DNA of 64,000 bases from Deltaproteobacteria bacterium (GTDB lineage Bacteria; Myxococcota_A; Polyangia; Polyangiales; Houyiibacteriaceae). This document shows positions 65 to 63,650 of the stretch, one piece after another. The notes beneath the pieces are model-generated. The model was not told the DNA's origin. It searched no databases and saw only the letters and a program-made list of their open reading frames with translations. The position numbers and the translations under genes are program-made. The stretch's first letter is position 1; each line of letters begins with the position of its first letter. The stretch spans positions 1 to 64,000 of the forward strand of contig JAXMNT010000024.1 in NCBI GenBank assembly GCA_034670305.1, written 5' to 3'.

Positions 65-97
65 GGGCAAGGGCACGGGCAAGGGCAACGGCAAGGG
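65..97. repeat. (GGGCAA/GGGCAC)n hexamer cap tract (locus R0)
   Basis: GGGCAA GGGCAC GGGCAA GGGCAA CGGCAA GGG; same unit as other intergenic tracts in the window. Confidence 0.85.
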
Positions 98-148
98 AGC
101 AGGTCGCTTTTCAGCGACCTGCTAGCCGAGCCTTCGGGCAGTTGCGCC

Positions 149-994
149 TCAGCCGAGTCGGGTGAGGATCGCGTCGAGGCCGGGGCTCTCGGCGCCGCCC
201 TCGAACATCGCGACGCCCGAGCGCTCGTACGCTTCGGTGCGTTCTTTGAGGACGAGGTGCACGTCGGTGCCGAGCTGGCCGGGGAGGGCCAGGTCGAGCT
301 CGAAGATGTCGCCGGCCACGAGCGTGGTTTCGGGGGTGGCGCCGGTCTCCGTCCACAGCTTGGCGAGCAGATCGAAGTAGGGTCCGCGTCGCAGCAGCAC
401 CGGCCGCTCGATGTGATCGATCGACATCGACTCGGGCACAGCGTCGAAGCGCGGGTCCGGCTGCGCGGGTTCCGCCACGACGAATTTGCGCGCGTCGCCG
501 AAGACGCGCAGGTTCTCGCGGCCCTTGGGCGCGAGCACGTCGATCTTGTGTTCGACATCGTCCGTCGCGGAGTTGGTGACCACGCAGATGTGGGCGTCGC
601 CGGCGAGCAGGGTCTCGACGACCTCTTTGGCTTCGGGGCGGAAGACGGTGTCCGCCTTCGGGTAGTTCTCGAAGTACAGGCGCTGAAGCAGCGCGCGACG
701 TTCTTCGACCTCCGTGTGGAGACCTCGTTTGTCGAGCATCAGGTTGAGAATGATGGTCGCACGCAGGTAAGGATCGGCGTTGCCAGGAGCGACGACGAGC
801 CCTTCGTAGGTCCATCCGTGTTTCGTCGGCGCTTCGGCCACGAGCGCGGCGGTGGCGTCCCACTCCGCGTCGATGTCTTCGTTCCCGAGCAATGCGCGCA
901 CTTCGGCCATGTAGGCCGCGAAGAACGGGCCGGCCTCTTGTTCGACGTCGGTGAACGTTCCATCGAAGTCGAGAATCACGAGGGAGTGGCGCAT
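149..994 (-). CDS. HAD-superfamily hydrolase
   Basis: N-terminal VILDFDGT motif I, VVTNS motif II, VAGD..ELD motif IV; start trimmed to ATG 994. Confidence 0.8.
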   Translation of the reverse strand: MRHSLVILDFDGTFTDVEQEAGPFFAAYMAEVRALLGNEDIDAEWDATAALVAEAPTKHGWTYEGLVVAPGNADPYLRATIILNLMLDKRGLHTEVEERRALLQRLYFENYPKADTVFRPEAKEVVETLLAGDAHICVVTNSATDDVEHKIDVLAPKGRENLRVFGDARKFVVAEPAQPDPRFDAVPESMSIDHIERPVLLRRGPYFDLLAKLWTETGATPETTLVAGDIFELDLALPGQLGTDVHLVLKERTEAYERSGVAMFEGGAESPGLDAILTRLG

Positions 995-1168
995 CGGGAG
1001 CGCGCCTCTTAGCCCGAGGACCCCGATCGCACAAGCCGCCCCCCGAACGGCGTCCGTGAACGGAGTCCACCATGATCCGCACAGTGATCGTCTGCGTGGT
1101 CGACTGCGGTGCGTGCGCGAGCGCGGACGCATCTTGTCGTCGTCCCGGTTTGGTGCCAGGTGTGTGCG

Positions 1169-1708
1169 ATGAGTTCTGCCGCGCCCACCCAACCCGAGAC
1201 CGTTCGGCAGGATCGCGCGTTCTTCGTCTTCAACGCGGTCGTCAGCGTGGTCGCACTCGCTGTGCTCGCCTGGCTGCTGGTGTTTCGGCGTGGCGAAGAA
1301 GGACAGCTGGACCTCTCGTTCATGCCGACCGTCAACGCGTCGCTGAACGCGACGGCGGCGGTGTTGCTGACCGCGGGGTGGCTCGCCATCCGCAAGGGGC
1401 GCATCGGTCTGCACAAGCGGCTGATGACGGCCAGCTTCGCCGCCTCTGCCTTCTTTCTCGTCGGCTACCTCGCGTACCACTACGTGCACGGAGACACCCG
1501 ATACGAAGGCGCGTACCGAGGCGTCTACCTTCCGCTGCTCATCAGCCACATCGTGCTCTCGATTCCGGTCGTACCGCTCGCCTTGAGCGCGTTCTACTTC
1601 GCGTGGCGCGAGCGGTTCGAGACCCACAAGAAGATCACGCGCATCCTCGCGCCGATGTGGATCTACGTCAGCGTGACCGGCGTGATGGTCTACTTCTTCT
1701 TGCGCTAG
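1169..1708 (+). CDS. DUF420-family membrane protein
   Basis: Hydrophobic helices with LNA, HKRLM, FLVGYLAYH, LISHI and HKK..R...PMWIYVSVTG motifs. Confidence 0.85.
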   Translation: MSSAAPTQPETVRQDRAFFVFNAVVSVVALAVLAWLLVFRRGEEGQLDLSFMPTVNASLNATAAVLLTAGWLAIRKGRIGLHKRLMTASFAASAFFLVGYLAYHYVHGDTRYEGAYRGVYLPLLISHIVLSIPVVPLALSAFYFAWRERFETHKKITRILAPMWIYVSVTGVMVYFFLR

Positions 1709-3450
1709 CCCGACCGGGACGCGTTCTCCCGCGCGGCCCGGATCGCCATCACGCCCTCGAGCAGCATCCACGCGGTGAGCGCCAGCAGCAGGGCGGCGAG
1801 ACCACCGAGCAGCCAGCGCTCGGCGGCGACGAACTCACGCAGCTTCGCGATCAGCGCGACGATCGCGACGAGCGTCACGATCGTCATCGGGATCACGAGC
1901 GGCAGCACGGGTTTGTTGCGCACCGCGAAGTAGAGCGCGAGCACCATGAGCGTGAGCGCGGCGAGCAGCTGGTTGCTGGCGCCGAAGATCGGCCAGAGCA
2001 CCCAGCCGAGCTGCGTGGTGGAACTCCCGGTCGGCACCTCCCCGAACGCGAGCGCCGCCGCGGGGACCACCGCACACGCCGTCGCCACGAAGCGGTTCTT
2101 GAGCGGCGCGATGCGGGTGGCTTCGCCGAGCTCCGCGAGGATGAAACGCTGGATGCGCGTCGCGGTGTCGAGCGTGGTCGCCGCGAAACTGATCACCAAG
2201 ACCGCCATCAGCGTACGCGCGAGTTCGGTGGGGAGGCCCACCGCTTCGAGGAACGCTCCGCCGCCCAGCACGAACGCCGCCGCTTTGTTGGCGCCCGCGT
2301 GCGCCCACGAGTCGTAGTAGGTCGCCCAACCCAGATCCAACACCGGCCCCTGGCCCGGCAGCGTGCAGGCACCCACGAGTCCGATGCCGGCGACCGCGGC
2401 GAGGGTGGATGCGAGCGCAAGCGAACCTTCGCCGAGCATGCTGCCGTAGCCGACCAGCCGCGCGTCGCGCATGCGGCCGAGCTGCTTCGACGTGGTGCCG
2501 GACGAGACGAGGCCGTGGAACCCACTGATCGCACCACACGCGACGGTCACGAAGAGCACGGGGAAGATCGATGGCGCACCTTCTTCCGGCGTGCGGATGG
2601 CGGGCGCGTCGAACTCGGGGTTGGCCACCACGAGTCCCAAGAAGAGCAGACCCAGTCCGACGACGAGCTGATGGCTGTTGATGAAGTCGCGCGGCTGCAG
2701 AAGCAGCCAGACCGGCAGGAGGCTGGCGACCGCCGAGTACAGAAGCAGGAAGACGATCCAGCCGTCGCGGGCCTCCGACGGAGTCCAGCCCCAAGCGGTG
2801 AGATCGACCGGCGCCTTCGTGCCCACCCAGACGAGCGCGTAGAGCACCGCGAGCGCGAAGAGCGAAGGCCACAAGGGCCGCATCTTGCGGCGGTGCAAGA
2901 GCCACCCGACGAGCACCGCGAGGACGATCTCGCTCTGGATGGGAACCACGCTGGTGGGCTGCGAGACGAAGAGCCCGGCGATGGCCATCGCGAAGACGGC
3001 GAGCACGAGCCAGACCAGCACCACCACGAAACAGAGGAACAAGACCCGGGCGCGTCCGCTGAAGACTCGGCCAGCGATGTCGGCGATGGAGCGACCGCCC
3101 TCGCGTGCGCTGACGACGAGCGCTCCGAAGTCGTGAACCGCGCCCATGAAGATCGTGCCGACGACCACCCAAGCGAGCGCCGGCAGCCAGCCCCAGTACG
3201 CCGCGACGCACGGCCCGATGATCGGGGCCGCGCCGGCGATCGAGGTGAAGTGGTGGCCGAGCAACACATGGCGGTCGGTCGCGACGAAGTCGACTCCGTC
3301 TGCGAACTCTTCCGACGGCATCGGCCGCTCGTGTCCTTCGGTGTCGACGAGTTGTGCGTCCTCGAAGAGCTTCTCGCCCAGGTAGCGGGCGTAGAAGCGG
3401 TAGCCGAGCACGAACGACGCCAAGATCAGCGCAGCGGCGAGAACGACCAC
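1705..3450 (-). CDS. cstA: Carbon starvation protein A (CstA) transporter
   Basis: GHHFTSIAGAAPIIGP, GAVHDF, LLQPRD, ACGAISGFH, LWPIFGASNQLLA motifs. Confidence 0.93.
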   Translation of the reverse strand: MVVLAAALILASFVLGYRFYARYLGEKLFEDAQLVDTEGHERPMPSEEFADGVDFVATDRHVLLGHHFTSIAGAAPIIGPCVAAYWGWLPALAWVVVGTIFMGAVHDFGALVVSAREGGRSIADIAGRVFSGRARVLFLCFVVVLVWLVLAVFAMAIAGLFVSQPTSVVPIQSEIVLAVLVGWLLHRRKMRPLWPSLFALAVLYALVWVGTKAPVDLTAWGWTPSEARDGWIVFLLLYSAVASLLPVWLLLQPRDFINSHQLVVGLGLLFLGLVVANPEFDAPAIRTPEEGAPSIFPVLFVTVACGAISGFHGLVSSGTTSKQLGRMRDARLVGYGSMLGEGSLALASTLAAVAGIGLVGACTLPGQGPVLDLGWATYYDSWAHAGANKAAAFVLGGGAFLEAVGLPTELARTLMAVLVISFAATTLDTATRIQRFILAELGEATRIAPLKNRFVATACAVVPAAALAFGEVPTGSSTTQLGWVLWPIFGASNQLLAALTLMVLALYFAVRNKPVLPLVIPMTIVTLVAIVALIAKLREFVAAERWLLGGLAALLLALTAWMLLEGVMAIRAARENASRSG

Positions 3451-3456
3451 GTGAGT

Positions 3457-6021
3457 TCAGTCGGGGGAGGTCGGCGGCGCGCCGGCGCCGGCGAGCGCGA
3501 AGAACGACGAGACGAGGTCCGACTGCACCGCGGCCGGATCGGGGGCGGCCAGTGCGGCGCTCGACAGAGGACCGGAGGCGCGCGTCCGGAAACGCTGCAG
3601 GTGGGCCGCGTCGACCTCGAACCCGCCGCGGTCGTCGTAGGCCGCTGGGATGCCGACCATGCCCACGCCTTCGTCGTAGAAGCGGTAGGTGCGCAGGGTG
3701 ATCGCGCGCCCCGAAGGAATGTGCATCACGCGCACGATGGGACCCGAGTGGTGCGCCAGGTGGGCACCGCCCGGCGCGAACGCGAGCCGGTCGGTGTCGA
3801 AGCATGGACCAAGCCGCTGGACACGCCCGGTCAATGCATCGCGCACCGTCACGTCGCCCCCGCCGTCCTCGGACGCCACACAAGTGGCGATGGCGTCGCC
3901 CGTGTCGCTCACGGCGTGCATGCGCGGCACGTCCTGGCGCAGACGCTCATTGCCTTCCGCGTCGATCACCCGGACGAGCTCGTTGCTGTCGATGATCAAC
4001 GCGTCGCCCGCGAAGCGGAGCGGCAAGATGCCTTCGGGCGAGGGCGTGGAGGCCTTCTGGGCGCCGGTCGCGACGTCGAGGATCGTCACCGACTCGGAGG
4101 TCGCGAACGCGAGCAGCGCGCCGTCCGGGTGGTAGGTCGCCTGCAGCACGTGGCCGGGCAGTTCGATGCGCGCGCGGGAGCGGCCACCGCGCACGGCGTA
4201 GAGTTCTGCCAGGTCGCGTTGGCCATCGTCGGCGCGCCGCCACGAGACGAACACCGATCCACCATCGGGCGCGACCTGGACGTAGCGGGCCGCGCTGGCA
4301 CCAGCCGAACGGAGGCGTGCTTTGCGGCGGCCCCGCGCGTCGAACACGAGGACGGCGTCGCCGACCGCGAGCGCGACGATGCTTCCGTCGGCGGCCACGC
4401 TGGCCTGTCCGCAGGGACCGTATTCGCAGCTGGGCGTGCCTCCGAGTCGGAGCGTGGGGCCGGGGCGCGCGGAGGACGCGTTCTGAACCCGCACGACCGC
4501 ATTGTCGCGGGTGATGGCGACGTTGCCCGACGGGTTCACGGCGATGAGTCCGTTGAAGCGCGCCAGCACATCGCCGCTGCGCACGTCGCATACTCGGTTG
4601 CCCTGCTGGTAGAGCGGTGTGCCGCCCTCGGGGAAGAGCGGGTTGCCGGTGCCGCTGCACGACGAGCTGAAGGTGCCCGCGGCGCCCCAGGTCTCGATGC
4701 CGGCGCGACCCCACGTGGCCAAAGTCTGACCGTCTGGAGACCAGGTCACGCCCCACACGGAGTGTTCGCCGCTGCCGCCGGGCAACAGAAAGCGCCGCTC
4801 GCCCGTCGCCGCGTCGAGGACCTCGAGGTCGGGGCCTTCGGCGAGTGCGATGAGCGTGCCGTCCGGGCTGATCGCGAGCGCGCTCACCGATTCTGCCGTC
4901 GCGATGAGCTCGCCCGTCTCGCCGGTCCGGAGATCGACCGAACGAACTCCGTCCCGCTCGACGACGAAGGCGCGCGCGCGGCTCGGGTCGAGCGCGTAGT
5001 GGTTGGCGTCGCGGACTTCGAACGCCGCCACCCGTTCGCCGGTCTGGGCATCGAAGGAACGCACGCGGCCGGCACGAGACCGTCCGACGATGAGTGACCC
5101 ATCGCCGGACCAGCCGACCTCGACGACCGCGTCGTCCTCGACGTCCGCGTCGAAGCGCAACATCTGGCGCACCGAGCCATCGCGTGGGTCGCGGACCATG
5201 ATGTGTCCGTCGTCCATGGTGGTCAGGAGCGCGCCGCCGCCGGGCCGGTAGTTCGGGGCAAGCCAGCGCCGGCCTTCCTCTGCGGTCAGCGTCAGCTTGA
5301 TTTCGCCGCTGGCTGCGTCGAGCAGCCAGATCTGTCCGGCCGTCCTCGAGTGCACGGTCAAGGTGGCGCCGCTCGGTGCGAACTCGAAGGTCTCGTTGCC
5401 CTCCGAGCCCACGCCGGTCGAGTGCACCACTCCGTCGGGGGTGCGCAGCACCACCTCGAACGCGTCCTGGTCGCCGGACATGCCCAGGTACGCGAGGGTC
5501 GTATCGTCCGGATGGACCGCGAACCGGGTCGCGTCGAACATCAATCCAGGACCGAGGAGCCACTGCCACGAGTTCTGGTGCAGGTCCCAGCGGAGCACAC
5601 CCCCGGAGCCGTCGAACCCGGACGAGGACGCGACGACGACGCTGCGGCCCGACCGGTCCGGGAGCACCAATCGGTGGCCGGTGCGGATGAACACGCGGCG
5701 GCTGGCCCGCATCTCCCCGGTGCGCGCGTCGACGACGCTCGCGACACCATCGGCGCTGACGAGTGTGATTTGGCGGCTGTCCGGGGTGAACGCGAGGTCG
5801 GAGAGACCGCGCCGATGGGCGGACTGGAAGACGAGCTCCGGGGCCGCCGCGGGTGCGTTCGCATCCCACTGTCGCATGGGGGGCGGCACGTCCGACGCCA
5901 CGAGCATGTTCGGCGCAGCGACCGGTTCGGGCCGCTGCATGTTCTGAGGGGTCGTGTGTACGGGCGGTGGACCGCAGGCGACCGTGAGGAGGAGGACGGG
6001 GGCGACGAACGACCGGATCAT
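3457..6021 (-). CDS. WD40/beta-propeller lipoprotein
   Basis: Lipobox-like LTVAC; repeated AFTPD, AISPDG, TWSPDG, YHPDG blades; start set at ATG 6021. Confidence 0.8.
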
Positions 6022-6094
6022 GCGCGAGAGACTACAGCGAATCCATGCACGAGGGGTGGAGGCCGCGGACACCCCTGCGCCGCCAGGGTTCGTC

Positions 6095-7030
6095 TCAGGT
6101 CACGGTGCGAAGCACGAACCGTTCGAGGGCGCGTCCGAGCCGATCGGGTCCGGTGCGGCCTTGCAACCGGCGCTGCGCCTCGACGTACGCGGGCACGTCG
6201 CGCGCGCGGCGCGGCAACCTCGGATAACCCGCGCGGAGGGTGCGGATCGAGGCCTTGAACATCGCCTGTTCGGTCCGCCCGAACGACCACCCGAGCTGCT
6301 CGCGCACGGTCTGGGGAAGCAGGCCCGAGGTCATGGTCTTGTACCAGGACATCAGCGGCCTCGCGGAGGGGCGCGCAGGGGTCAGGAGGAACGCGCTCAT
6401 CTCCCGCGCGGGACCCCCGACCGCGATCTGATCCGAGTGGACCATGCGATCGAAGTAGCGGCTGAACGCGGCCCAGTCCGGCGGCAGCTCCGATTCGGGC
6501 ACGCCGAAGAGCATCGCGAAACACTTGGCCTCCGCGTAGTACTGCTCGCGCTCCTGCGTGGTGAGCGGACGGACGACGAGCTCGTACACCTGCACGGCGG
6601 TGTAGATGAGCGTGGTGTGCACCCACAGGAGCGAAGGCGCGTCGTTCGCTTCGTAGGTCTGACCTTGGTGGAACGCGCCGACGTCTTCGCGGATCGGCCC
6701 GCGGATGTGGTCGTGAATGTGCCGCACCCGCCGAGATGCGGAGAGCACCATCTCGAGGTCCCCGAACAGGATCGCGTTCACGTGCTGGAAGGTGCGTTGA
6801 AACCGTCCAAGCGGATCGGTCCGCGTCGCGCTGTGTTGGTCGACGGCGTGCGCGACGAATGGATGTGCGAGTTGGAGGAGGGCCGCGCATCCGCCGCCGA
6901 GAAAGAGCACGGACTCCCGCGCAATCTCCCACGTCATGCTCCCCGGCCCGTACAGCCCAGCACTCGGCTCCCGCACATGCTCCGTCGCCCGCCGGACCGA
7001 CTCTTCGTAACTCTCGCGACTGACGTGCAT
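6095..7030 (-). CDS. Oxygenase MpaB / DUF2236 family protein
   Basis: [41 protein letters not shown] motifs. Confidence 0.85.
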
Positions 7031-7067
7031 GCCGTCCCGCAGGATACCCCACCCCCCACACCCTCGC

Positions 7068-7374
7068 TTGCCCTTGCCCCTGCCCTTGCCCCTGCCCTTG
7101 CCCTTGAGTGCAGGCGCGGCGCTTCGGCTTCGGCTTCGGCTTCGGCTTCTGCGTCGGCTTCTGCTTCTGCTTCTGCTTCTGCTTCTCCGTCGGCGTCGGC
7201 GTCGGCTTCTGCGTCGGCGTCGGCTTCGGCGTCGGCTTCGGCTTCGGCTTCGGCGTCGGCGTCGGCGTCGGCTTCGGCTTCGGCTTCGGCTCCGGCGTCG
7301 GCTTCGGCGTCGGCTTCGGCTTCAGATTCGTGAGTGCAGGCCTCCCCGTTCGGGCACGGGCACGGGCACGGGCA
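7068..7374. repeat. Complete hexamer-repeat element R1: C-rich cap, (GGCKTC/TGCTTC)n core, G-rich cap
   Basis: (YTGCCC)n 7068-7106; core 7121-7323; (GGGCAC)n 7352-7374; TGAGTGCAGGC direct repeat at 7105-7115 and 7331-7341. Confidence 0.92.
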
Positions 7375-7394
7375 GCCTCGGCTTCAGCCCCCGC

Positions 7395-8147
7395 TCACCG
7401 CTTCTTCGGCACCGGCGAGAATCGATCCATCACCCACCGGGTCGCGCCCGGCAGGTGCCGCGCCGCCGCATAGAACTCCGGGTAGATGACCCGATCCCGC
7501 TTGCGCTCCACCGCGCGCACCACCCGCTTCGCGAGCCCCTCCACCGTGCCGGTCGGAAGCATGGCGGGCGGCGCGTCGTACCGGTCCATCGCGGCCGCCG
7601 CCATGTTGGTCTCCACCGGGCCTGGGTACACCGTCACGACGTGCACGCCCGCCTTCGCGACCTCCGCCCGGAGCGCTTCACTCGCCGCCGCGAGGCCCGC
7701 CTTCGAGGCGCTGTAGTGGACCATGCCGAGGGTCGGCGCGATGCCCGCGAGCGAGGCCACGTCGACGATCGCACCATGGCCGCGTTCGATCATGCCGGGA
7801 AGGACTCGGGCATGCAGGCGCAGCGGTGCGAGCAGATTCAATCGGAGCAGCCGCTCCCCCTCGTCGACCGGCACATCCACCGTCTGCGCCACGATCTGGA
7901 TGCCGGCGTTGTTGATGCAGATGTCCACCGGGCCGAAACCGGCTTCTGCGCGATCGACCACGCCGTCGATCGAATCGAGCACCGTGAGGTCGGCCGAGAT
8001 CACCTGCGCGCGTCCGAGTTCGGTCGCGAGCGTTTCGAGTTTGCCCACCGAACGGGCGACCAGCGAGACCTGATCGCCACGCGAAGAGAAAGGGCGCGCG
8101 AGCGCTTCGCCGATTCCCGAACTGGCGCCCGTGACGAGTACATGCAT
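7395..8147 (-). CDS. Short-chain dehydrogenase/reductase (SDR)
   Basis: TGASSGIG, NNAG, YSASK (YxxxK), PGPVET. Confidence 0.93.
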   Translation of the reverse strand: MHVLVTGASSGIGEALARPFSSRGDQVSLVARSVGKLETLATELGRAQVISADLTVLDSIDGVVDRAEAGFGPVDICINNAGIQIVAQTVDVPVDEGERLLRLNLLAPLRLHARVLPGMIERGHGAIVDVASLAGIAPTLGMVHYSASKAGLAAASEALRAEVAKAGVHVVTVYPGPVETNMAAAAMDRYDAPPAMLPTGTVEGLAKRVVRAVERKRDRVIYPEFYAAARHLPGATRWVMDRFSPVPKKR

Positions 8148-8189
8148 GCGGGCGAGCGTAGCAGGACCGCCACGCGGTTCAGCGTGCCG

Positions 8190-11691: not shown

Positions 11692-11767
11692 GCTGGGACC
11701 ATGCCTCAACCCGGTCGGGAAGGCACGGCTGGGCTGCTCGGATGGGCTCGGCGCCCAGCCCCAGGCG

Positions 11768-14549: not shown

Positions 14550-15003
<454 letters not shown>

Positions 15004-19048: not shown

Positions 19049-19205
19049 GAGTCGGCTTCGGCTTCGGCTTCGGCTTCGGCTTCGGAGTCGGCTTCGGAGT
19101 CGGCTTCGGCTTCGGCTTCGGAGTCGGCTTCGGAGTCGGCTTCGCCTAGTCGGCTTCGGCTTCTACTTCGGAGTCAGCTTCGGCTTCGGGGTCGGCTTCG
19201 GAGTC
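19049..19205. repeat. Hexamer core tract R3 (GGCTTC/GGAGTC)n
   Basis: Direct reading; no G/C cap seen. Confidence 0.9.
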
Positions 19206-19248
19206 CGCGCCCGACGCGATCGGCGTTGGAACTGCGGTAGGCTGCGGC

Positions 19249-20617: not shown

Positions 20618-21511
20618 ATGACCTTGCTTCGTTTGGGATGTGGTGTGCTCTGTCTGGGGCTCCTGGCGTGTGGTGACGACGACGCGGGCGTGCCGACGCG
20701 GGACAGCGGCGCGGTCGACGCGCCTACGGAACAAGATGGGGGCGCAGTCGACGGGGCCACCGAAGACAGCGGCGGCGTGGACGGCGGCGGGGTGGATGCA
20801 CCTTCGACCGAAGACGCGGGCATGGAAGACGCCGGCCCGGCGGAAGACTCGGGCCCCCCGGAGGATGGTGGAAGCGTCGACACCGGCGTCGTCTCGATGC
20901 CCTGCACCGCACCCGGCGCGTGCGACCCCTTCGATCCCGACGCGTGCGGCGCCGACATGAACTGCGTGCTCGGTTCCGACGACATGACGGTCTGCCGGGC
21001 CAGCACCGGCACGGCGGCGACCGGCGCCACGTGCAGCCGCGCGGAGGACTGCGCGGGTGGCCACATCTGCATCAACTTCGGCGGCGAAGCCACGTGCCAG
21101 CAAATGTGTCCCGATGGGAGCATCGGGTTCTGCAGTGGGTCCGAGAACCGATGTTCGGGCGGCATCGGCGACGAGTGCGTGCGCTTCTGTCAGCCGCGTT
21201 CCGAGCCCTGCGACATCTACGCGCAGGACTGCGTCGACCCCGAAGACGGCTGCAACTTCTCGACCGATCCGGAGACCGGCGCGCGCTACACCGGCTGCCG
21301 CCCGGCGGGACCGCAGACCCTCGGCGAAGCGTGTGGCAGCGACCCCGGCTTCTGCGCGCGGGGCCTCGTGTGCATCCGAGTCGATGGCGAGGCGACCTGC
21401 CACGAGGTCTGCGACGCCGAGGACCCGACCGACATCTGCAGCGATGTCGGTCAGACCTGCTCGGGCCTGAGCACCGGGTTCATGGTGACGTACTGCCGCG
21501 ACGCCTCGTAG
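20618..21511 (+). CDS. Cys-rich lipoprotein with acidic DAG/DSG linker
   Basis: MTLLRLGCGVLCLGLLAC-GDDD; Cys modules resembling the C-terminal half of the upstream gene. Confidence 0.8.
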   Translation: MTLLRLGCGVLCLGLLACGDDDAGVPTRDSGAVDAPTEQDGGAVDGATEDSGGVDGGGVDAPSTEDAGMEDAGPAEDSGPPEDGGSVDTGVVSMPCTAPGACDPFDPDACGADMNCVLGSDDMTVCRASTGTAATGATCSRAEDCAGGHICINFGGEATCQQMCPDGSIGFCSGSENRCSGGIGDECVRFCQPRSEPCDIYAQDCVDPEDGCNFSTDPETGARYTGCRPAGPQTLGEACGSDPGFCARGLVCIRVDGEATCHEVCDAEDPTDICSDVGQTCSGLSTGFMVTYCRDAS

Positions 21512-21524
21512 GTCGCGATAGCGA

Positions 21525-21551
21525 CCCTTGCCCTTGCCCTTTGCCCTTGCC
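21525..21551. repeat. Isolated (CCCTTG)n cap tract R4
   Basis: Four CCC runs starting 14 nt after the stop at 21511. Confidence 0.75.
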
Positions 21552-28673: not shown

Positions 28674-29148
28674 CCCTGCCCTTGCCCCTGCCCCTGCCCT
28701 TGCCCTTGGGTTCAGAAGCAGAGTAGGCGAAGCAGAGTCGGCGACAGAAGCAGAGTCGGCGACAGAAGCAGAGTCGGCGACAGAAGCAGAGTCGGCGACA
28801 GAAGCAGAGTCGGCGACAACCGCGCGCCAGGTGATCGGAAGCGGCTTCGGAGATCGGGATCGGCTTCGGGATCGGCTTCGGTAGCGGATCGGGCACGGGC
28901 ACGGGCAAGGGCACGGGCACGGGTCACACAACGCATCCTCTCCTTCGGATTCGGATTCGGATTCGGCATCGCCCATCGGACCTTCGGCTTCTGGATCGGC
29001 ATCGGCTTCGGGATCGGCTTCGCATTCGGGCTTCGGCTTCGGATTCGGGATCGGCTTCGGCTTCGGCTTCGGCGTCGGCTTCGGCGTCGGCTTCGGAGTC
29101 GGCTTCGGCGTCGCCTTCAGCGTCGGCTTCGGCGTCGCCATCAGCTTC
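28674..29148. repeat. Compound hexamer-repeat element R5
   Basis: C-cap 28674-28707; 18-mer array 28729-28818; short core ~28843-28880; G-cap 28891-28923; further (GGCTTC/GGATTC/GGCGTC)n 28944-29148. Confidence 0.92.
28729..28818. repeat. Five perfect tandem copies of GAAGCAGAGTCGGCGACA (18 bp)
   Basis: Direct reading; no spacers. Confidence 0.95.
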
Positions 29149-31513: not shown

Positions 31514-31612
31514 GGGTAGGGGCACACAGCACACGCCGTGCCGTTGGAGGTTCACGGGGTTTCTGGGGCGAGAAGGGTGGCGGCCGACTGGCGGAGCGGT
31601 GGCGGGCCGCCG

Positions 31613-31909
31613 GATCCCGAAGCCGAAGCCGATGGCGAAGCCGATGGCGAAGCCGAAGCCGATGGCGAAGCCGAATCCGAATCCGAAGCCGAATCCGAAG
31701 CCGAAGCCGAAGCCGAAGCCGAATCCGAATCCGAATCCGAATCCGAATCCGAATCCGAATCCGAAGCCGAATCCGAAGCCGAATCCGAATCCGAATCCGA
31801 AGCCGAATCCGAAGCCGAATCCGAATCCGAATCCGAAGCCGAATCCGAAGCCGAATCCGAAGCCGAATCCGAATCCGAAGCCGAATCCGAATCCGCTACC
31901 GAATCCGCC
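31613..31909. repeat. Hexamer core tract R6 (GAAGCC/GAATCC)n
   Basis: Roughly 50 hexamers upstream of comEC; no cap. Confidence 0.92.
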
Positions 31910-35385: not shown

Positions 35386-35462
35386 GGATGCTTAGCTCAG
35401 CTGGATAGAGCGTCGGCCTCCGGAGCCGAAGGTCAGAGGTTCGAATCCTCTAGCATTCGCCA
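35386..35462 (+). tRNA. tRNA-Arg(CCG)
   Basis: Acceptor GGATGCT/AGCATTC, D-arm GCTC/GAGC, anticodon arm TCGGC-CTCCGGA-GCCGA, T-arm AGAGG-TTCGAAT-CCTCT, encoded CCA. Confidence 0.96.
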
Positions 35463-39144: not shown

Positions 39145-39187
39145 GGCCGCGCTGGCTTGCCCGAAGGGCTCTGCCCGCACGGCAGGG

Positions 39188-39352
39188 CCCCTTGCCCCTG
39201 CCCTTGCCCTTGCCCTTGCCCTCGGTTCTGAAGCCCGAATCCGAAGCCGACCCCGAAGCCGATGCCGAAGCCGATGCCGATGCCGATGCCGATGCCGAAG
39301 CCGATGCCGATGCCGAAGCCGATGCCGAAGCCGATGCTGACGCAGATGCCGC
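39188..39352. repeat. Hexamer-repeat element R7: C-cap plus (GCCGAT/GCCGAA)n core
   Basis: Cap 39188-39221; junction GGTTCTGAAGC; core to ~39352. Confidence 0.9.
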
Positions 39353-41839: not shown

Positions 41840-42234
41840 GCCGATGCCGATGCCGAAGCCGATGCCGAGGCCGAAGCCGAAGCCGACGCCGACGCCGAAG
41901 CCGAAGCCGACGCCGACGCCGAGGCCGAAGCCGATGCCGAAGCCGATACCGGTGCCGAGGCCGAAGCCGAAGCCGAGGCCGAAGCCGAAGCCGAAGCCGA
42001 CGCCGAAGCCGAGACCGAAGCCGAGGCCGAAGCCGATGCCGGTGCCGAAGCCGACGCCGAAGCCGATGCCGAAGCCGAGGCCGGTGCCGATGCCGAGGCC
42101 GAAGCCGAAGCCGAACCCGAATCCGAAGCCGAAGCGGAAGCGGAAGCGGAAGCGGAAGCGGAAGCGGAAGCACTGGCACGGGCACGGGCAGGGGCACGGG
42201 CACGGGCAAGGGCACGGGGCACGGGCACGGGCAC
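41840..42234. repeat. Hexamer-repeat element R8: (GCCGAN/GCGGAA)n core plus (GGGCAN)n cap
   Basis: Core 41840-42171; G-cap ~42175-42234. Confidence 0.92.
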
Positions 42235-43329: not shown

Positions 43330-43548
43330 GCCGCTGACTGCGGCTGCCGCTGAGTCTGCCGCTGCCGCTGAGTCTGCCGCCGCTGAGTCTGCCGCTGCCG
43401 CTGCCGCTGAGTCTGCCGCAGAGTCTGCCGCTGCCGCTGAGTCTGCCGCTGCCGCTGAGTCTGGCGCCGCCGCTGAGTCTGCCCCTGCCCTGAGTCTGCC
43501 GCTGCCGCTGAGCCTGCCGCTGCCGCTGCCGCTGAGTCTGCCGCTGCC
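43330..43548. repeat. Imperfect tandem array (GAGTCT GCCGCT GCCGCT)n, locus R9
   Basis: About 12 units built from hexamers/trimers between convergent genes, abutting the stop at 43548. Confidence 0.9.
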
Positions 43549-48884: not shown

Positions 48885-48899
48885 CGGGCTACTGGCCGC

Positions 48900-54432: not shown

Positions 54433-54436
54433 CACC

Positions 54437-56596: not shown

Positions 56597-56614
56597 CGCG
56601 AGCGCAAGCAAGCG

Positions 56615-56713
56615 CCCCTTGCCCATGCCCGTGCCCATGCCCTTGCCCGTGTCCGGGCGACCAGGCAGCGGCATCGGCTTTGCCATCGGGATCGCCATCG
56701 GCATCGGCATCGA
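56615..56713. repeat. Hexamer-repeat element R10: C-cap plus short (GGCATC)n core
   Basis: (CCCNTG)n 56615-56650; core 56670-56713. Confidence 0.82.
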
Positions 56714-56917
56714 CTGCGCCGGCCGTGGGAGGCGCCGCCTGGCGCGTCCGACCCCGCGGCCGCAGGCCGCGACGCGGACCGGCGCAGCGCCGGTCTGCTT
56801 TGTCGTTTTTTGGACCCTCGCGACCCACTCCTATATCGCTGAGGCATGGCGACGGATGGAAAGGTGGTTCGACCGTTTGCGTTCTTTCGAGCGGGAGCTC
56901 GTTCGGAAGGAGCGCGG

Positions 56918-57679: not shown

Positions 57680-57689
57680 CGAGGAAATC

Positions 57690-58571: not shown

Positions 58572-59689
58572 TGCGACTGCGACGTCTCCGGTTCCTCGTC
58601 ATCGCGTTGCTCGCTGGGCTGGCTGCCACGCTGCCCGGTTCGGCGCAGCCGGCTTACCCACTCTCCGCCGGCATTCCGCTGGCGCCGACCCAGTTCGCCC
58701 AGCCCCAGGGCCAGGCCTATGGGCCGTACGGACAGCCAGGCCCCGGTGCGCCCAGCACCGGTGCGGCACCAGGGTCGCCGCTCGCTCAGATCGAAGGGCA
58801 GCTCGCGGTGTTGACCGCAACGGAAGCCGAACTCGAGACGAGCGGCCACGAGATCACCGTCGAGCTCGAGCAACTCTCCGAGCGACGCGCGGCTGCGACA
58901 CGATCGCTTCGCACCCGCGCCCGGGCGCTCTACCGCATCGAACGGGCCGGCATGCTGCCGCTGAGCGGCGGGTTCGACGCGATGCTCGGCCACCTCTCGC
59001 GGCTCGAGCGCCTGCGGCGCGTGGTCCGGTCCGACATGGCCGCGCTCCAGTTCTTGCGTCAGCGGGCGCGCGCACTTCGCAGCGATGCCGAGCGGATCCA
59101 CGAACGCAGCGCCGATCTCGGCGTCGAGCGCGCCGGTCTCGAGCAGCGCGCCGCCGAGCTGCGCGAACAGTCGCGCATCCAGCAGAACTACGCGGGCGCA
59201 TTCGACCCGCGTCTGTTGCCGCCGCTCCCGATGATGCAGCCGCAGGCCGCGCCTCGGCCGCAACCGAGCGGCCCGGTGTACGGACAGATCCGGCTCAGCG
59301 ACACGCCGCGGCCCGAGGTCTCTGCCCGCGGCTTCGCGACGCTCCGCGGCGAGCTCCCGCTCCCGGTCGCAGCGGGCGGCAACGTGCGTCCGGGCACCCG
59401 CGACGGAGCCCAGGTGCTCGAGTTCCAGCCGCCGCGCGGCAGCTCCGCGATGGCCGTGGCCGATGGCCGGGTCGCGTTCGCGGACCGCTACCGAAGCTAC
59501 GGCATGCTCGTCATCCTCGATCACGGCGGCGGCTACTACACGCTCTACGGTGGGCTCGACTCGGCGGCCGTGCAGAATGGCGAGTGGGTGGGCCGCGGCG
59601 CCCGCGTCGGCCGCGTGGGCGCGACCCTCGCGTTCGAAGTCCGGCGCGGCACCCGCGCACTCGACCCCTCCGCCTGGCTCGGCCTCTAG
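58571..59689 (+). CDS. envC: EnvC-like murein hydrolase activator (coiled coil plus degenerate M23/LytM domain)
   Basis: Follows ftsEX; coiled coil; LP.PV, YG..VILDHG.GYYTLY, FEVR....DP..WL; Zn ligands absent. Confidence 0.8.
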   Translation: MRLRRLRFLVIALLAGLAATLPGSAQPAYPLSAGIPLAPTQFAQPQGQAYGPYGQPGPGAPSTGAAPGSPLAQIEGQLAVLTATEAELETSGHEITVELEQLSERRAAATRSLRTRARALYRIERAGMLPLSGGFDAMLGHLSRLERLRRVVRSDMAALQFLRQRARALRSDAERIHERSADLGVERAGLEQRAAELREQSRIQQNYAGAFDPRLLPPLPMMQPQAAPRPQPSGPVYGQIRLSDTPRPEVSARGFATLRGELPLPVAAGGNVRPGTRDGAQVLEFQPPRGSSAMAVADGRVAFADRYRSYGMLVILDHGGGYYTLYGGLDSAAVQNGEWVGRGARVGRVGATLAFEVRRGTRALDPSAWLGL

Positions 59690-59782
59690 CAGCAGCTGTA
59701 TTCCGCGAGGTGGGATGGCGTGAACGCTTCCTACGCCGCTGGTCTCGCACACGAACGGCCGCCCGCAGCAGGACGAATTAGA

Positions 59783-59816
59783 GAATCCGCCCCGCACGAG
59801 TGCGTGGGGCGGATTC
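59783..59816. terminator. Strong hairpin between convergent genes (possible terminator)
   Basis: GAATCCGCCCC / GGGGCGGATTC 11-bp stem; U-tract weak. Confidence 0.5.
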
Positions 59817-59836
59817 GTTGGTGCTGGGTTCGGGCT

Positions 59837-60220
59837 TTACTGGAACATGCCGTATTCGGACTGGAGGTGTGCGAGCACGTTCTCCAGGTCCGCGTCGCTG
59901 AGCTGGTCGGCGCTGAACGCGGGCATGCGGTCTTCACCGTGCCGCACCAGTTGGCGGATCTCCGCCGCGTCGTCCGTCCGGCCGTGAAGGTCCGGACCGA
60001 CGCCGGGGTGACAGCCCGCGCAGAAGTTCGCGAACACTTCGCCGCCGGCCGCTGCGTCGCCGCTGACCGGACCCTCGTACTGGCTGAGGTCTTCACCGCC
60101 GCCCGAGTGCTCGTGGTGCTCGGGGCCGTCGCCTTCGCCACCGCTGCCGTCGCCACCGCCACAGGCGAGCGCAACCACGCACACCACACCGACCAGGGTC
60201 GCCATCCAGGACGTCTTCAT
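59837..60220 (-). CDS. Monohaem c-type cytochrome lipoprotein
   Basis: ALAC lipobox; CAGCH; GPDL; distal MP. Confidence 0.88.
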   Translation of the reverse strand: MKTSWMATLVGVVCVVALACGGGDGSGGEGDGPEHHEHSGGGEDLSQYEGPVSGDAAAGGEVFANFCAGCHPGVGPDLHGRTDDAAEIRQLVRHGEDRMPAFSADQLSDADLENVLAHLQSEYGMFQ

Positions 60221-60258
60221 GAATCTGTCTCCGCTCTCTTGTTTCTTGTAGGGCATCG

Positions 60259-62049
60259 TCATGCGGACGGCGCGTCTTCGCGCCCACGCTTGGTGGAGAT
60301 CTGTACCAGCTTTTTGGACTGGATGTGCTGCGCAGCGTCCGGGTCGACGAGGTCGCTGTGACACGAGGCCTTCTTGCCCTCGTCCGCGCCGACCGCGCCG
60401 CGCGTCTTGGTCGCGAGGCGGTGGATTTCATCGGGGGGAAGCACGCCGCGCTGCTCCAGGATCGCCTTCTGCTCGGGTGTGAGCGCGGCCGACTGAACCA
60501 CCTTGAGCCGCTCGAAGTCGGGATCCTTGCCGCTGGCGAACTCGACGATCTCCTTGCTGATGCGTACCGAACACCAGTCGTGCCCGCACATCGCGCAGAA
60601 GTCGGTGTCGACGTCGAGGTCTTCGTCGTGCAGCGCGCGGGCGAACTCCCCATCGAACGCGAGCTCGAAGTGTTTCTCCCAGTTCAGCGCCGCGCGGGCC
60701 CGGGTGAGGTCGTCGTCCCAGTCGCGGGTCTCGGGCACCCCGAGCGCGACGTCGGCGGCGTGGGCCGCGATCTTGTATGCAACGCAGCCCTGTTTGACGT
60801 CGTCGCGCTTCGGTAGACCGACGTGCTCCTTGGGCGTCACGTAGCAGAGCATCGCCGCGCCATGGTACGCCGCCGCGGTCGCGCCGATGCAGCTCGTGAT
60901 GTGGTCGTAGCCGGGGAAGACATCGGTCACGAGCGGTCCGAGCACGTAGAAGGGCGCGCCGTGACAGACGCGGCGCTGCAGCTTCATGTTGAACTCGATC
61001 TGATCGAACGGGACGTGGCCCGGGCCCTCGACCATGACCTGGCAGCCCTTGCGCCAGGCCCGCTCGGTCAGCTCGCCGAGCGTCTGCAGTTCGAGCAACT
61101 GCGCGGTGTCGGTCGCGTCCGCGAGGCCGCCGGGGCGCAGGCCATCGCCCAGCGAGAACGAGACATCGTATGCGCGCATGATGTCGCAGATGTCTTCGAA
61201 GAGCGTGTACGTCGGGTTCTCTTTGCCGTGGGTGATCATCCACTTCGCGAGCAAGGAACCACCGCGCGACACGATGCCGATGAGGCGATCCTTCACGTAC
61301 TTGAGGTGGTCGCGCAGCACGCCGGCGTGAATGGTGAAGTAGTCGACGCCCTGCGCGGCCTGGTGACGCAGCATGTCGAGAATGTCCTGCTCCGAGAGAT
61401 CCTCGATCTTCTTGCCGATGATCATCGAGTAGAGCGGCACGGTGCCGATGGGCACGTTCGAGGCGCGGATGATCGCGTCGCGGCAGGCGTCGAGATCCCC
61501 TCCGGTCGACAGGTCCATCACGGTGTCGGCGCCCCAGCGCTCGGCCCAGTGGAGCTTCTCCACTTCTTCGGTCGTGCCGGAGGACACCGGTGAGGCGCCC
61601 ATGTTCGCGTTGACCTTGGTCTTGCTCGCCCGGCCGATGCACATCGGGTCGAGTTTGTAGCCAAGGTGCACTCGGTTGGCAGGAATGATCATGCGGCCGG
61701 CGGCGACCTCGTCGCGGATCTGCTCGGCGGTCAGGTGCGGCTCGCGTTCGGCGACGCGCTTCATCTCCGGCGTCACGGCGCCGAGTCGCGCGTGCTCGAG
61801 CTGGGTGATCGGTTCGAATCCGGCCGGGGCTTCGGCGAAGCCGTTGGCGCCGCGCGTCCAGCCCTCGGGGAGGAAGTCCCAGGCGGTCTTGGTGCTGGGC
61901 GCCGGCATGCCGGGGGTGTCGGGGGACGAGAACATGAGCGGTCCGCCCACGTCCTTCGGGTTGGCGAACGAACCAGGGGTGGTGCCGGCCTTCGTGGAAG
62001 AAGGGTTGTCGGCGCCGTGCAGGGGCAGGTCGTGTTTCAGCTCGGTCAT
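60259..62049 (-). CDS. thiC: Phosphomethylpyrimidine synthase
   Basis: KVNANMG, DLSTGG, IGTVP, SRGGS, GDGLRPG, EGPGH, YVTPKEH, CAMCG...C. Confidence 0.97.
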
Positions 62050-62100
62050 CTCGTCTCCATGTCTCTCTTGAGAATGCAGGAAACGGGTGAGCGGGTGCCC

Positions 62101-62181
62101 ATCGCGTTCCCTACGCCGGTACAAACCGGATCAGGTTCGACGGGTACGTCTCAGCGCCCCATTGGGCGCGCCCCGCGCGAT
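62101..62181 (-). promoter_or_regulatory. TPP riboswitch upstream of thiC
   Basis: Minus strand GCGCTGAGA..ACCCGTCGAACCTGATCCGGTTTGTACCGGCGTAGGGA; ATCGCG/CGCGAT closing stem. Confidence 0.93.
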
Positions 62182-62240
62182 GCCTAGGACATAGTGCACG
62201 TGGGCGGCGTTGGGAAGGGCCGCGGCGGGAAAGGTCGGCT

Positions 62241-63335
62241 CTACAAACCCTGGTCGCGGAGCCAGGTGACGTACTCCGCGTAGAAGTCGAGGTGGTCCCA
62301 GCGGTTGAACCCGCCGGGTTCGTCGCCAAAAAGCTGTCCGACTTGGTCGAGGTGGTCGGCGGGAATGCATCCGAGGAACCGCCCCCACTTCGCGCTCGAG
62401 ACCCGGACCACCCCATCGTTGGGCTCCGGGTCGCCGAAGCCGCCGTCGAAGAGGGCCTCGGCCACCGCGAAGAGCGGGTCGATCGGATCGCGCTCGGCGG
62501 CCCAGCGCGAGATGAACGGGGGCGCGTCGCCGTCGGGCCGGCACATGCGGAACGCGAGGTTCAGATCCGAGCGTCCCGCGATCGAGTAGTAGGGGATGCC
62601 CTCGACGTCTGGGTACCGTTCGTTGAAGGCGGCGGCGCCCTCGAAGCTGAGATCCTGCATGGACCGGAAGATGTCCGAGTCCTCGTCGAGCTCGTCCCAG
62701 AGCACGCCGCCGACGAGCTGAAGCAGTTCGTTCACGGCGTCGCGCAGGCGGGGGTCTTCCGCAGCTGCGTTCACGAGGTCGAGCAGCGGCGTGCCGAAGT
62801 GCGGGGTGGAGATGGTGGAGACCGACGCGACGAGATCAGGCCGCGTGTGGGCGACGTAGCGCACGTCGAGTCCGCCTTGGGAGTGACCGATGAGGTTCAC
62901 CTTCGCGCGACCGGTCTCGGCCAAGATCATCTCGACGTGCGCGAGGAGCTCCTCCCCGCGGTGCTCCGAGCCGTTGAAGGGGTCGACCGCGGGCGTGAAG
63001 ACCTCGGTTTCGCCGAGTTCGGTCTCGAGGTGCGCCGGGACGCCGTAGAAGTAGTCGGTGATGTCCCACGCGCCGACCGCGAGGGTCTCGAACCCAAAGA
63101 AGCCATGCGCCAGCACGATGGGGTAGGGCGCGCCCAGCGGTTCGGGCGCCGCGTCTTCCGCGGCATCCATCTCGCCCGCGTCGGGCTGGAGAAGTGCGTC
63201 GGATCCGGCATCGGCGATCATCGCGTCGACCGGGCGTGCGTCGGACGCACCGGCGTCCTCGAACGGGGTCGTGTCCGAACCACCGCATGCGCAGAGAAGC
63301 GCGAAGGCCGCGCCGAAACCCAATCGAATACTCAC
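62241..63335 (-). CDS. Triacylglycerol lipase (family I-like) lipoprotein
   Basis: LCAC lipobox; YPIVLAHG, KVNLIGHSQGG, TPHFGT, NDGVV, DHLD; start approximate. Confidence 0.9.
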   Translation of the reverse strand: MSIRLGFGAAFALLCACGGSDTTPFEDAGASDARPVDAMIADAGSDALLQPDAGEMDAAEDAAPEPLGAPYPIVLAHGFFGFETLAVGAWDITDYFYGVPAHLETELGETEVFTPAVDPFNGSEHRGEELLAHVEMILAETGRAKVNLIGHSQGGLDVRYVAHTRPDLVASVSTISTPHFGTPLLDLVNAAAEDPRLRDAVNELLQLVGGVLWDELDEDSDIFRSMQDLSFEGAAAFNERYPDVEGIPYYSIAGRSDLNLAFRMCRPDGDAPPFISRWAAERDPIDPLFAVAEALFDGGFGDPEPNDGVVRVSSAKWGRFLGCIPADHLDQVGQLFGDEPGGFNRWDHLDFYAEYVTWLRDQGL

Positions 63336-63433
63336 CAGGACACCCCAGTCTGAACGCACGTGGTCGGACTCCACTCCGACGCCGAGCGCGTGAACACCAT
63401 ACGCCAAAACGGGAAAAATGCCCGTGCGTGAAG

Positions 63434-63650
63434 CCCTTGCCCTTGCCCTTGCCCCTGCCCTTGCCCTCCCGAATCCGAAGCCGAAGCCGAAGCCGCGGCG
63501 ACGCCGATCCCGAAGCGAATCCGATCCCGAATCCGAAGCCGAATCCGAAGCCGAATCCGAAGCCGAAGCCGAATCCGAATCCGAAGCCGAATCCGAAGCC
63601 GATCCCGAAGCCGATCCCGAAGCCGATCCCGAAGCCGCTGCCGCTGCCGC
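63434..63650. repeat. Hexamer-repeat element R11: C-cap plus (GAATCC/GAAGCC/GATCCC)n core
   Basis: Cap 63434-63466; core 63468-63650. Confidence 0.92.

What the first reader, a model, noticed from the sequence alone, without database searches (positions are those of the whole stretch)
65..63650. Family of intergenic hexamer-repeat elements with telomere-like outward-facing G-rich caps
Seen: 12 intergenic loci (~2.9 kb in total, none inside a called gene) built from two hexamer classes. One is a variable core, NCNGAN (GCCGAA/C/T/G, TCCGAA, CCCGAA, GCAGAA, GCGGAA), found in either orientation. The other is a cap, (GGGCAN)n. The seven caps that read C-rich on + (7068, 14550, 21525, 28674, 39188, 56615, 63434) lie on the left of their element or intergenic space. 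The four that read G-rich on + (65, 7352, 28891, 42175) lie on the right. The G-rich strand therefore runs 5'->3' outward regardless of neighbouring gene direction, as at telomeres. R1 and R5 carry both caps as degenerate terminal inverted repeats. Caveats: R5 has extra core beyond its G-cap, and R0 and R4 show no adjacent core. Inference: simple slippage does not explain the fixed polarity. It suggests a non-autonomous repeat-built element, templated repeat addition by an enzyme encoded elsewhere, or oriented protein-binding or chromosome-organising sites. No candidate enzyme is in this window.
Basis: partly seen in the sequence, partly recalled or inferred. Interest (0 to 1): 0.85.

Follow-up and report, generated by a model that had tools for sequence, protein, structure and literature searches.

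The report
Fixed-length, one-way repeat caps between genes
Hundreds of gaps between genes in this bacterium carry a one-way, usually 33-base G/C repeat that often sits exactly against a small hairpin unique to that site; it resembles a known but unexplained class of bacterial repeats rather than a telomere, and its fixed length and exact junction give a new handle on how such repeats arise.

Summary
194 of 230 caps next to a core face outward; all 18 two-cap gaps read C-cap then G-cap. Transcription strand and replichore do not explain this.
The telomere reading is not supported: I found no fitting enzyme. The same gene-relative polarity, inverted pairs and preferred unit number are published, in mirror image, for Xanthomonas GGGAATC repeats (PMC4692102).
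New here:
- The cap peaks sharply at six CCC tracts, CCC(NTGCCC)5 (159 of 375; 11 have seven). A second genus shows the same (209 six-tract versus 14 seven-tract matches).
- The 28 fixed bases are usually perfect while N varies freely.
- A site-specific perfect hairpin often ends exactly at the cap (44 of 276 outward, 0 of 276 inward), mostly filling the space from stop codon to cap.
The window's first cap is the end of a 130-plus-copy IS5-derived mini-element. Hexamer tracts also flank four-helix-bundle cassettes, which this scan has reported before on other DNA, but most tracts are orphans.
Best guess: an oriented, length-constrained single-strand pause site that seeds fold-back hairpins and slippage. 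New variant of a known kind.

The parts
1..125 (-). Left end of the IS5-derived mini-element: CTAG (122-125), 11-bp hairpin (98-123), six-tract cap with one imperfect tract (65-97), start of the interior. The contig begins inside the element.
   Evidence: DNA fold z -4.4
7071..7103 (+). Six-tract C-rich cap, about 40 nt upstream of the start of the minus-strand gene 6095-7030
7123..7326 (-). Core tract, (GCCGAA/GCCGAC/GCAGAA)n on the minus strand
7352..7372 (-). Four-tract cap (G-rich on +), 22 nt past the stop of gene 7395-8048; closes a two-cap element
14550..15001 (+). Eight-tract cap (14550-14594) running into core tracts (14592-14681, 14772-15001), upstream of argH
19051..19208 (-). Core tract without cap
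21511..21551 (+). 6-bp hairpin starting in the stop codon (21511-21526) and running into a degenerate cap (21525-21551); no core
   Evidence: z -3.6
28674..29148 (.). Two-cap element: C-cap 28674-28705, five perfect 18-mers 28729-28818, short core, six-tract G-cap 28891-28923, a short recurring motif also seen upstream of four-helix-bundle cassettes, then more core
31610..31907 (+). Core tract without cap, (TCCGAA/GCCGAA)n
39169..39351 (+). Hairpin, six-tract cap (39189-39221), linker and core (39234-39351), downstream of the spermidine-synthase-like gene
41840..42234 (.). Core (41840-42169) and G-rich cap (seven strict tracts 42180-42218, degenerate to 42234)
43330..43548 (+). Degenerate (GCCGCT)-type hexamer/18-mer tract without cap
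56616..56712 (+). Six-tract cap (56616-56648) and short inverted core (56664-56712)
63434..63651 (+). Six-tract cap (63434-63466) and core (63468-63651)

Best explanation
WHAT IT IS (shown; about 0.85): a myxobacterial version of the polar intergenic G-rich short tandem repeats described for Xanthomonas and Nostoc. The unit is hairpin - cap - short linker - variable interior, read 5' to 3' on the C-rich strand away from the nearest gene, and sometimes closed by a second, inverted cap. The constant part is the cap, CCC(NTGCCC)5. The NCNGAN core is this lineage's slippage-expanded filler. HOW IT WORKS (inferred; about 0.4): the cap is an oriented, length-constrained cis-site that acts on single-stranded DNA, through a G-quadruplex/i-motif fold or a bound oligomeric protein. 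A polymerase copying the G-rich strand pauses at the cap's edge. The nascent C-rich strand folds back through a stable GNA-type loop, copies the sequence just behind it and resumes at the cap. This leaves a site-specific perfect hairpin that ends exactly at the first C. Slippage past the cap gives the cores and local duplications. Caps are seeded at new sites by hitch-hiking on mobile DNA (the IS5-derived mini-element, four-helix-bundle cassettes) and by recombination between repeats; selection keeps them out of genes and promoters.
For: Polarity. Fixed length: 159 of 375 non-mini-element caps have six tracts, 51 five and 11 seven, whereas core tracts are long-tailed. G004 has 209 six-tract and 14 seven-tract matches, G012 8 and 0. 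Constraint: 167 of 221 near-matches are perfect at all 28 fixed bases while N differs 58% pairwise; flanks are mostly unique (168 inward and 189 outward singletons of 235). Exact junction: perfect stems of 7 bp or more abut 44 of 276 caps outward, 0 of 276 inward and 13 of 2194 random sites; 35 of 50 stem ends lie at offset 0; all 43 hairpins after stops differ, and 10 reach 3 or more bases into coding sequence. G004: 7 of 33 caps have such a hairpin, all at the junction. Loops are cGNAg/cGNNAg/cANAg in 28 of 60, against 1 of 47 plain hairpins. Turnover: 1 of 24 G004 caps has a cap at the G000 homologue, baseline 4%. Precedent: PMC4692102.
Against: No folding, binding or pausing was measured. 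Four tracts suffice for a quadruplex, so six is unexplained. Only 16-20% of caps have a detectable abutting stem (44-54 of 276). The sharp mode is not general: G017 has 216 versus 136, and G250, G063 and G298 show mostly longer arrays in the listed rows. GGGAATC arrays, which do form quadruplexes in vitro, show no abutting hairpins on either side (2 and 3 of 111, one of each an N artefact), which counts against a generic quadruplex stall. That 25 of 43 stems begin within 2 nt of the stop codon, and the excess of TAG stops (62 of 110 versus 751 of 2402), fit an RNA 3'-end role or TAG-targeted insertion better than a replication accident.
Confidence: 0.4

Rival explanations
1. RNA 3'-end or regulatory signal. 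Stop codon, hairpin and C-rich tract act as a terminator or stabiliser (REP-like stem plus Rho loading site), or the six CCC triplets are the site for a ring-shaped RNA/ssDNA-binding oligomer, for example the four-helix-bundle protein.
For: C-rich caps on the transcript lie a median 21.5 nt after the stop. Convergent gaps are favoured (45 with a C-cap and 45 with a G-cap, of 594) over divergent ones (13 and 11 of 991). Stems start at the stop codon. The local four-helix-bundle protein matches XCC0516, PDB 2GSC, five chains, E 1.5e-5 (pentamer recalled).
Against: In codirectional gaps the transcript meets the G-rich strand as often as the C-rich one (63 versus 51). Sites are not shared by homologous genes (1 of 24). 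Many loops are triloops, which favour DNA over RNA (recalled). G002 and G008 have 16 PF05635 matches each and no cap.
Confidence: 0.2
2. Relics of mobile-element ends. Orphan caps are left-over arms of older waves of IS5-type mini-elements or four-helix-bundle cassettes, kept tidy by slippage and palindrome correction.
For: A mini-element with hairpin plus six-tract cap at both ends has 136 left and 112 right ends, with CTAG at 121 and 91. TAG stops are in excess, and 6 of 43 orphan hairpins begin like its end. 35 of 37 cassette genes of families A-C have a hexamer tract nearby, against 74 of 393 small control genes. A weak linker consensus follows the cap in two genera.
Against: Neutral relics should decay at the fixed bases as fast as at the linker, and slippage should spread the length; neither is seen. 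Only 116 of 1310 tracts lie near cassette-like DNA, none in this window. In G004 the mini-element query hit only cap-sized pieces among 40 of 527 candidates scored, and none of 8 four-helix-bundle loci had a cap within 300 nt upstream or 220 nt downstream.
Confidence: 0.2
3. Templated addition by an enzyme. A nicked target folds back and is extended, then an unknown polymerase copies an ordered template (cap, linker, core), giving one fixed end and one variable end.
For: Exact hairpin-cap junctions, some copying coding sequence. Ordered grammar, with CCGAAG-oriented core inward of 144 of 192 caps. Small tandem units of cap, linker, core and end motif. Fixed length with unique flanks.
Against: No candidate enzyme. 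The variable base is rarely A (15 of 1531 spacers) and each strand has invariant As, unlike DGR-type mutagenesis. Most loci have core only (501 of 964). Other genomes have long, near-perfect arrays of the same unit.
Confidence: 0.15
4. Assembly artefact, or unconstrained slippage of a favoured hexamer.
For: 151 of 210 contig ends lie in the mini-element or its nested inserts and 28 in hexamer tracts. Core lengths are long-tailed.
Against: 43 spacer patterns among 159 six-tract caps cannot be collapsed copies. The pattern recurs in other genera, one of them a single contig. Contigs from three runs agree.
Confidence: 0.03

Closest known systems
GGGAATC repeats of Xanthomonas and GGGGA(C/T)T repeats of Nostoc (Rehm et al. 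2015, PMC4692102; I read parts 1-6 of 8: whole main text and start of the references, no supplements)
   Same: Intergenic G-tract repeats, about 185 per Xanthomonas genome. A preferred unit number. Nearly always close to one neighbour (28 versus 160 nt on average) whatever that gene's direction. Both strands on transcripts, inverted pairs (70-75 in Xanthomonas), no leading/lagging bias, rare between divergent genes, no function found.
   Different: Hexamer with six tracts instead of heptamer with four units. Mirror polarity (C-rich strand reads away from the gene). Abutting site-specific hairpins, absent from 111 GGGAATC arrays I sampled. Not shared by homologous genes of another genus; Rehm found 83% shared between two species of one genus, so the distances compared differ.
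GTAG-tagged REPs with RAYT/TIRYT transposases (Di Nocera et al. 2013, PMC3733652; passages only)
   Same: Small hairpins whose end supplies the TAG stop of a flanking gene; the genome has 11 RAYT-like Y1 genes.
   Different: The hairpins here share no family sequence (43 of 43 distinct), and the Y1 genes are framed by other repeats.
Four-helix-bundle (PF05635/TIGR02436; XCC0516; Avd-like) genes and the Coxiella 23S intervening sequence (PMC4990558; passages only)
   Same: The gene family is tied to short tandem repeats: heptamer repeats before the Coxiella ORF, hexamer tracts at 35 of 37 cassette genes here and at 33 of 40 hand-picked loci in relatives.
   Different: No such gene or cassette remnant lies among the window's orphan arrays, and most tracts are orphans.
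IS5/IS1182-group MITEs
   Same: The element at 1-125 has inverted ends, CTAG flanks and an IS5 transposase remnant (NF033581, E 8e-8 for 40 residues, below the cut-off).
   Different: Covers only the 271 of 646 caps classed as mini-element arms. No intact transposase was found with PF13751.
Telomeres/telomerase and repeat-adding bacterial RTs (recalled)
   Same: A G-rich strand running outward from a two-cap element.
   Different: Internal sites, fixed length, mostly one cap, opposite polarity to end-healing, and no matching RT.

Membership tests
Polar intergenic G-rich SSRs (Rehm class) | Abundant, dispersed, mainly intergenic G-tract repeats | tested here: met
   437 of 466 intergenic; found on most large contigs
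Polar intergenic G-rich SSRs (Rehm class) | Fixed orientation to the nearer gene regardless of its direction | tested here: met
   mirror image of Xanthomonas
Polar intergenic G-rich SSRs (Rehm class) | Preferred unit number | tested here: met
   six tracts rather than four units
Polar intergenic G-rich SSRs (Rehm class) | Inverted pairs; no replichore bias | tested here: met
   18 of 18 pairs C..G; 90 versus 125 against a KOPS proxy on 30 contigs, which is indirect in a draft genome
Polar intergenic G-rich SSRs (Rehm class) | G-quadruplex/i-motif folding in vitro | not testable with these tools
   The sequence fits the G3+ N1-7 consensus (established knowledge)
Telomere-like repeat addition | G-rich strand runs 5'-3' away from the chromosome arm it caps | tested here: not met
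   It points toward the flanking gene
Telomere-like repeat addition | Repeat-adding RT or polymerase with a template | tested here: inconclusive
   Only three retron-XIII-like RTs and no PF01896; genome incomplete and other polymerase families not searched
REP/REPIN-RAYT | Family-conserved palindrome | tested here: not met
   43 of 43 hairpins distinct
REP/REPIN-RAYT | Y1 gene flanked by the same repeat | tested here: not met
   The 11 Y1 genes have other inverted repeats; the one cap beside a Y1 gene belongs to an inserted mini-element
MITE (all orphan cap elements) | Shared ends, shared interior, target duplication | tested here: not met
   Flanks mostly unique; mostly one cap per gap
IS5-group MITE (element at 1-125 only) | Inverted ends, CTAG flanks, many copies, transposase remnant | tested here: met
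KOPS (FtsK-orienting sites) | Polarised along replichores | tested here: not met
   Both orientations within single gaps; no bias with proxy
Diversity-generating retroelement products | Adenine-specific variation with RT and template repeat | tested here: not met
   Invariant As on both strands; A in 15 of 1531 spacers; no DGR-type RT among the three RTs
Intrinsic terminator | Hairpin followed at once by a U-tract | tested here: not met
   The hairpin is followed by CCC(NTGCCC)n

The most novel reading that the evidence does not exclude
An undescribed enzyme inserts these units de novo: it nicks near a TAG or gene end, lets the target fold back and extends it, then switches to a repeat template and writes cap, linker and core. 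The multicopy four-helix-bundle proteins may act as the ring that counts the repeats. This would be a target-primed repeat-writing system that explains the long-noted polar short repeats of several phyla.
Probability: 0.15. Interest if true: 0.9.

Novelty: new variant of a known kind. Interest (0 to 1): 0.55.

Why it matters
Polar 6-7-base intergenic repeats have been noted in bacteria without a function or an origin (PMC4692102 ends on that point). This family adds two sharp, measurable features: a cap length set at six tracts with a free spacer base, and site-specific hairpins joined to it at single-base precision on one side only. Either a ruler-like binder or structure exists, or an enzyme writes the unit. 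Both are testable with short oligos, strain pairs and transcript-end mapping, and both could bear on the unknown role of the widespread four-helix-bundle proteins.

Tried and rejected
- Caps bracketing genes (G-cap, gene block, C-cap): 6 observed, 5.3 expected; rejected.
- Transcription-strand rule: rejected.
- Replichore or KOPS role: rejected on proxies only.
- Small peptides from the repeats: the ATG of the recurring end motif is followed by caps in different frames (my reading); rejected.
- DGR-type mutagenesis: rejected.
- RAYT-like genes or retron RTs as the engine: no link seen. One RT has a core tract downstream, within what 1310 tracts per genome would give.
- Caps simply being four-helix-bundle arms: fails in G004 and for this window.
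- Four-helix-bundle genes near GGGAATC arrays: 0 of 80 loci with my own HMM, whose sensitivity I did not test.
- Rfam: nothing at the repeats.
- Sequencing runs: no RNA holder listed. Run X5 showed no listed piece across the 56616 cap, so no empty-site allele was obtained.
- No same-genus genome was among the relatives drawn, so empty-site comparison was not possible.
- Literature: nine searches found no description of this repeat family. Two papers were not held (Elhai 2008 and Mrazek 2007, recalled only). Subscription journals are not covered, and the Rehm supplements were not opened.
- MacGregor 2015 (PMC4679880): abstract, outline and a term search with no hit.
Full report
1. Observation. 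Tandem-repeat and pattern scans recover all 12 loci. A dicodon gene caller that I wrote gives 6202 genes and 87.9% coding, and places the loci between genes. The neighbours are ordinary genes or unknowns; none of 47 window proteins matched a transposase, RT or four-helix-bundle family.

2. Polarity. Where a core is present, 194 of 230 caps face outward, and the core just inside a cap reads CCGAAG on the C-rich strand in 144 of 192 cases (mini-element caps included). With mini-element and cassette gaps removed, codirectional gaps carry the C-rich strand on the transcript 51 times and the G-rich strand 63 times. The first sit a median 21.5 nt after the stop, the second 78.5 nt before the next start. 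Convergent gaps are favoured and divergent ones avoided. Two caps share a gap 18 times (4.3 expected), always C then G, whereas caps do not bracket gene blocks (6 versus 5.3). There is no excess with the leading-strand proxies (110 versus 137 by GC skew; 90 versus 125 by KOPS). So polarity belongs to the intergenic unit. It is opposite to what telomerase-type healing of a break would leave (inference).

3. The cap has a set length. Of 646 strict arrays, 271 are mini-element arms. Among the other 375, tract numbers are 3:79, 4:61, 5:51, 6:159, 7:11, 8 or more:14; a tolerant count keeps the peak (173 at six, 28 at seven). Core tracts decay smoothly to more than 20 units. The 159 six-tract caps show 43 spacer patterns. 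Of 221 intergenic near-matches with up to two mismatches, 167 are perfect at all 28 fixed bases, while the N positions differ 58% pairwise. Flanks are mostly unique. G004, another genus, has 209 six-tract and 14 seven-tract matches, and G012 (one contig) 8 and 0. G017 (216, 136), G019 (18, 7) and G033 (26, 12) are broader. In 372 kb of G004, picked around earlier hits, 27 of 48 arrays have six tracts, with unrelated interiors and little core. A weak linker consensus follows the cap in both genera. Only 1 of 24 G004 caps with a homologous neighbour (24 of 34 caps) has a cap at the same gene end in G000, against a 4% baseline. In the phylum the six-tract motif is patchy: 31 of 301 genomes, four with more than 50 matches. 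In three distant genomes the listed matches lie mostly in longer arrays.

4. Hairpins joined to the cap. After stop codons, 35 of 110 caps are preceded by a perfect stem of 7 bp or more, against 114 of 1960 plain gaps (p 1.5e-15); 26 of the 35 end exactly at the cap and 30 within two bases. Over all contexts, 44 of 276 caps have such a stem outward, none inward, and 13 of 2194 random intergenic sites have one; 35 of 50 stem ends fall at offset 0 (caps preceded by further repeat units were left out of the 276). The 43 hairpins after stops all differ. 25 begin within two bases of the stop's first base, 10 copy three or more coding bases, and 6 begin like the mini-element end. TAG stops are enriched (62 of 110 versus 751 of 2402). 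Loops are cGNAg, cGNNAg or cANAg in 28 of 60 on the C-rich strand (3 of 60 in reverse), against 1 of 47 plain hairpins; that such loops give very stable DNA mini-hairpins is recalled. G004 shows the same junction in 7 of 33 caps. Most caps have no detectable stem.

5. Links to mobile DNA. The cap at 65-97 is the left end of an element with 136 left and 112 right ends; 33 pairings were found, 32 of 180-668 bp and one spurious. CTAG flanks 121 and 91 of the ends. It carries a four-helix-bundle remnant and an IS5 transposase tail; PF13751 finds only three fragments. Both ends are hairpin plus six-tract cap. The genome has 47 PF05635 matches in four groups. Of the 37 in groups A-C, 35 have a hexamer tract within 450 nt and 15 on both sides; small control genes give 74 and 1 of 393 within 400 nt. 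Relatives show the same with other hexamers (33 of 40 loci that I picked from 7 genomes). Earlier agents of this scan reported these cassettes. But only 116 of 1310 period-6 tracts lie near cassette-like DNA, none in this window. G004's caps are not at 8 of its 9 four-helix-bundle loci, and the mini-element was not seen there (40 of 527 candidates scored). Mobile carriage is therefore real but not the whole story.

6. Enzymes. The three RTs score best as retron type XIII. Eleven Y1 genes lie in their own long inverted repeats. PF01896 was not found. The genome is 96% complete and I searched no other polymerase families, so an enzyme is not excluded.

7. What is known. Rehm et al. (PMC4692102) describe GGGAATC repeats with a four-unit mode, lying 28 nt from one neighbour and 160 nt from the other regardless of gene direction, with 70-75 inverted pairs, no replication bias, quadruplex folding in vitro and no known function. 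Di Nocera et al. note that GTAG REPs often supply the TAG stop (passages). The Coxiella intervening sequence has heptamer repeats before its ORF (passages). Nine searches found no account of this family.

8. Mechanism. Shown: polarity, set length, free spacer base, exact one-sided junction, turnover, partial carriage by mobile DNA. Inferred: that the cap is a constrained single-strand site where polymerases pause, so that fold-back makes the hairpin and slippage makes the core (0.4). Rivals: RNA 3'-end or ring-protein site (0.2), relics of element ends (0.2), de novo templated insertion (0.15), artefact (0.03). The GGGAATC negative and the anchoring at the stop codon are the main results against the favoured reading.

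9. Verdict. Real; a new variant of a known but unexplained class; not a telomere-like system on present evidence. Interest 0.55.

Noticed in passing
window 62090-62185 (-): TPP riboswitch upstream of thiC.
   Followed up: no
window 35386-35462 (+): tRNA-Arg(CCG).
   Followed up: no
window 28729-28818: Five perfect copies of an 18-mer inside the two-cap element, a higher-order expansion of hexamers.
   Followed up: no
window about 28935-28950 and genome-wide: A short end motif (CCGAAGGAGAGG, 58 copies; 35 followed by ATG) closes some cores, precedes some caps and also stands upstream of four-helix-bundle leaders.
   Followed up: partly
G000 C1:298446-299113, C32:46143-46809, C83 near 18949, C11 near 27473, C19 near 96076: Two small structured inserts recur inside four-helix-bundle genes and the mini-element.
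   Followed up: no
G000, 11 loci such as C38:23445-24161 (L307): RAYT-like Y1 genes of about 235-250 aa, mostly framed by long inverted repeats that hold a shared palindrome.
   Followed up: partly
L304, L305, L306: Three retron type XIII-like reverse transcriptases in one genome.
   Followed up: partly
L031, L032, L037 (G012); L051-L055 (G002); L058-L060 (G013); L063-L065 (G036): Four-helix-bundle genes often occur as tail-to-tail pairs of two subfamilies, with lineage-specific hexamer tracts upstream in most G012, G002 and G036 loci.
   Followed up: partly
L101-L120 (G004): Segments of 50-140 bp that include a cap are often duplicated in tandem, and neighbouring caps share linkers, suggesting local copying.
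   Followed up: no
L284, L293 (G298): In a distant family a repeated hairpin-plus-cap end resembles the G000 mini-element end.
   Followed up: no
L154-L230: Many GGGAATC arrays in Xanthomonadales are followed on their 3' side by an A-rich linker, a mirror of the cap-linker order here.
   Followed up: no
G000 contig ends: 151 of 210 contig ends fall in the mini-element or its inserts, so intact copies may be unassembled.
   Followed up: no
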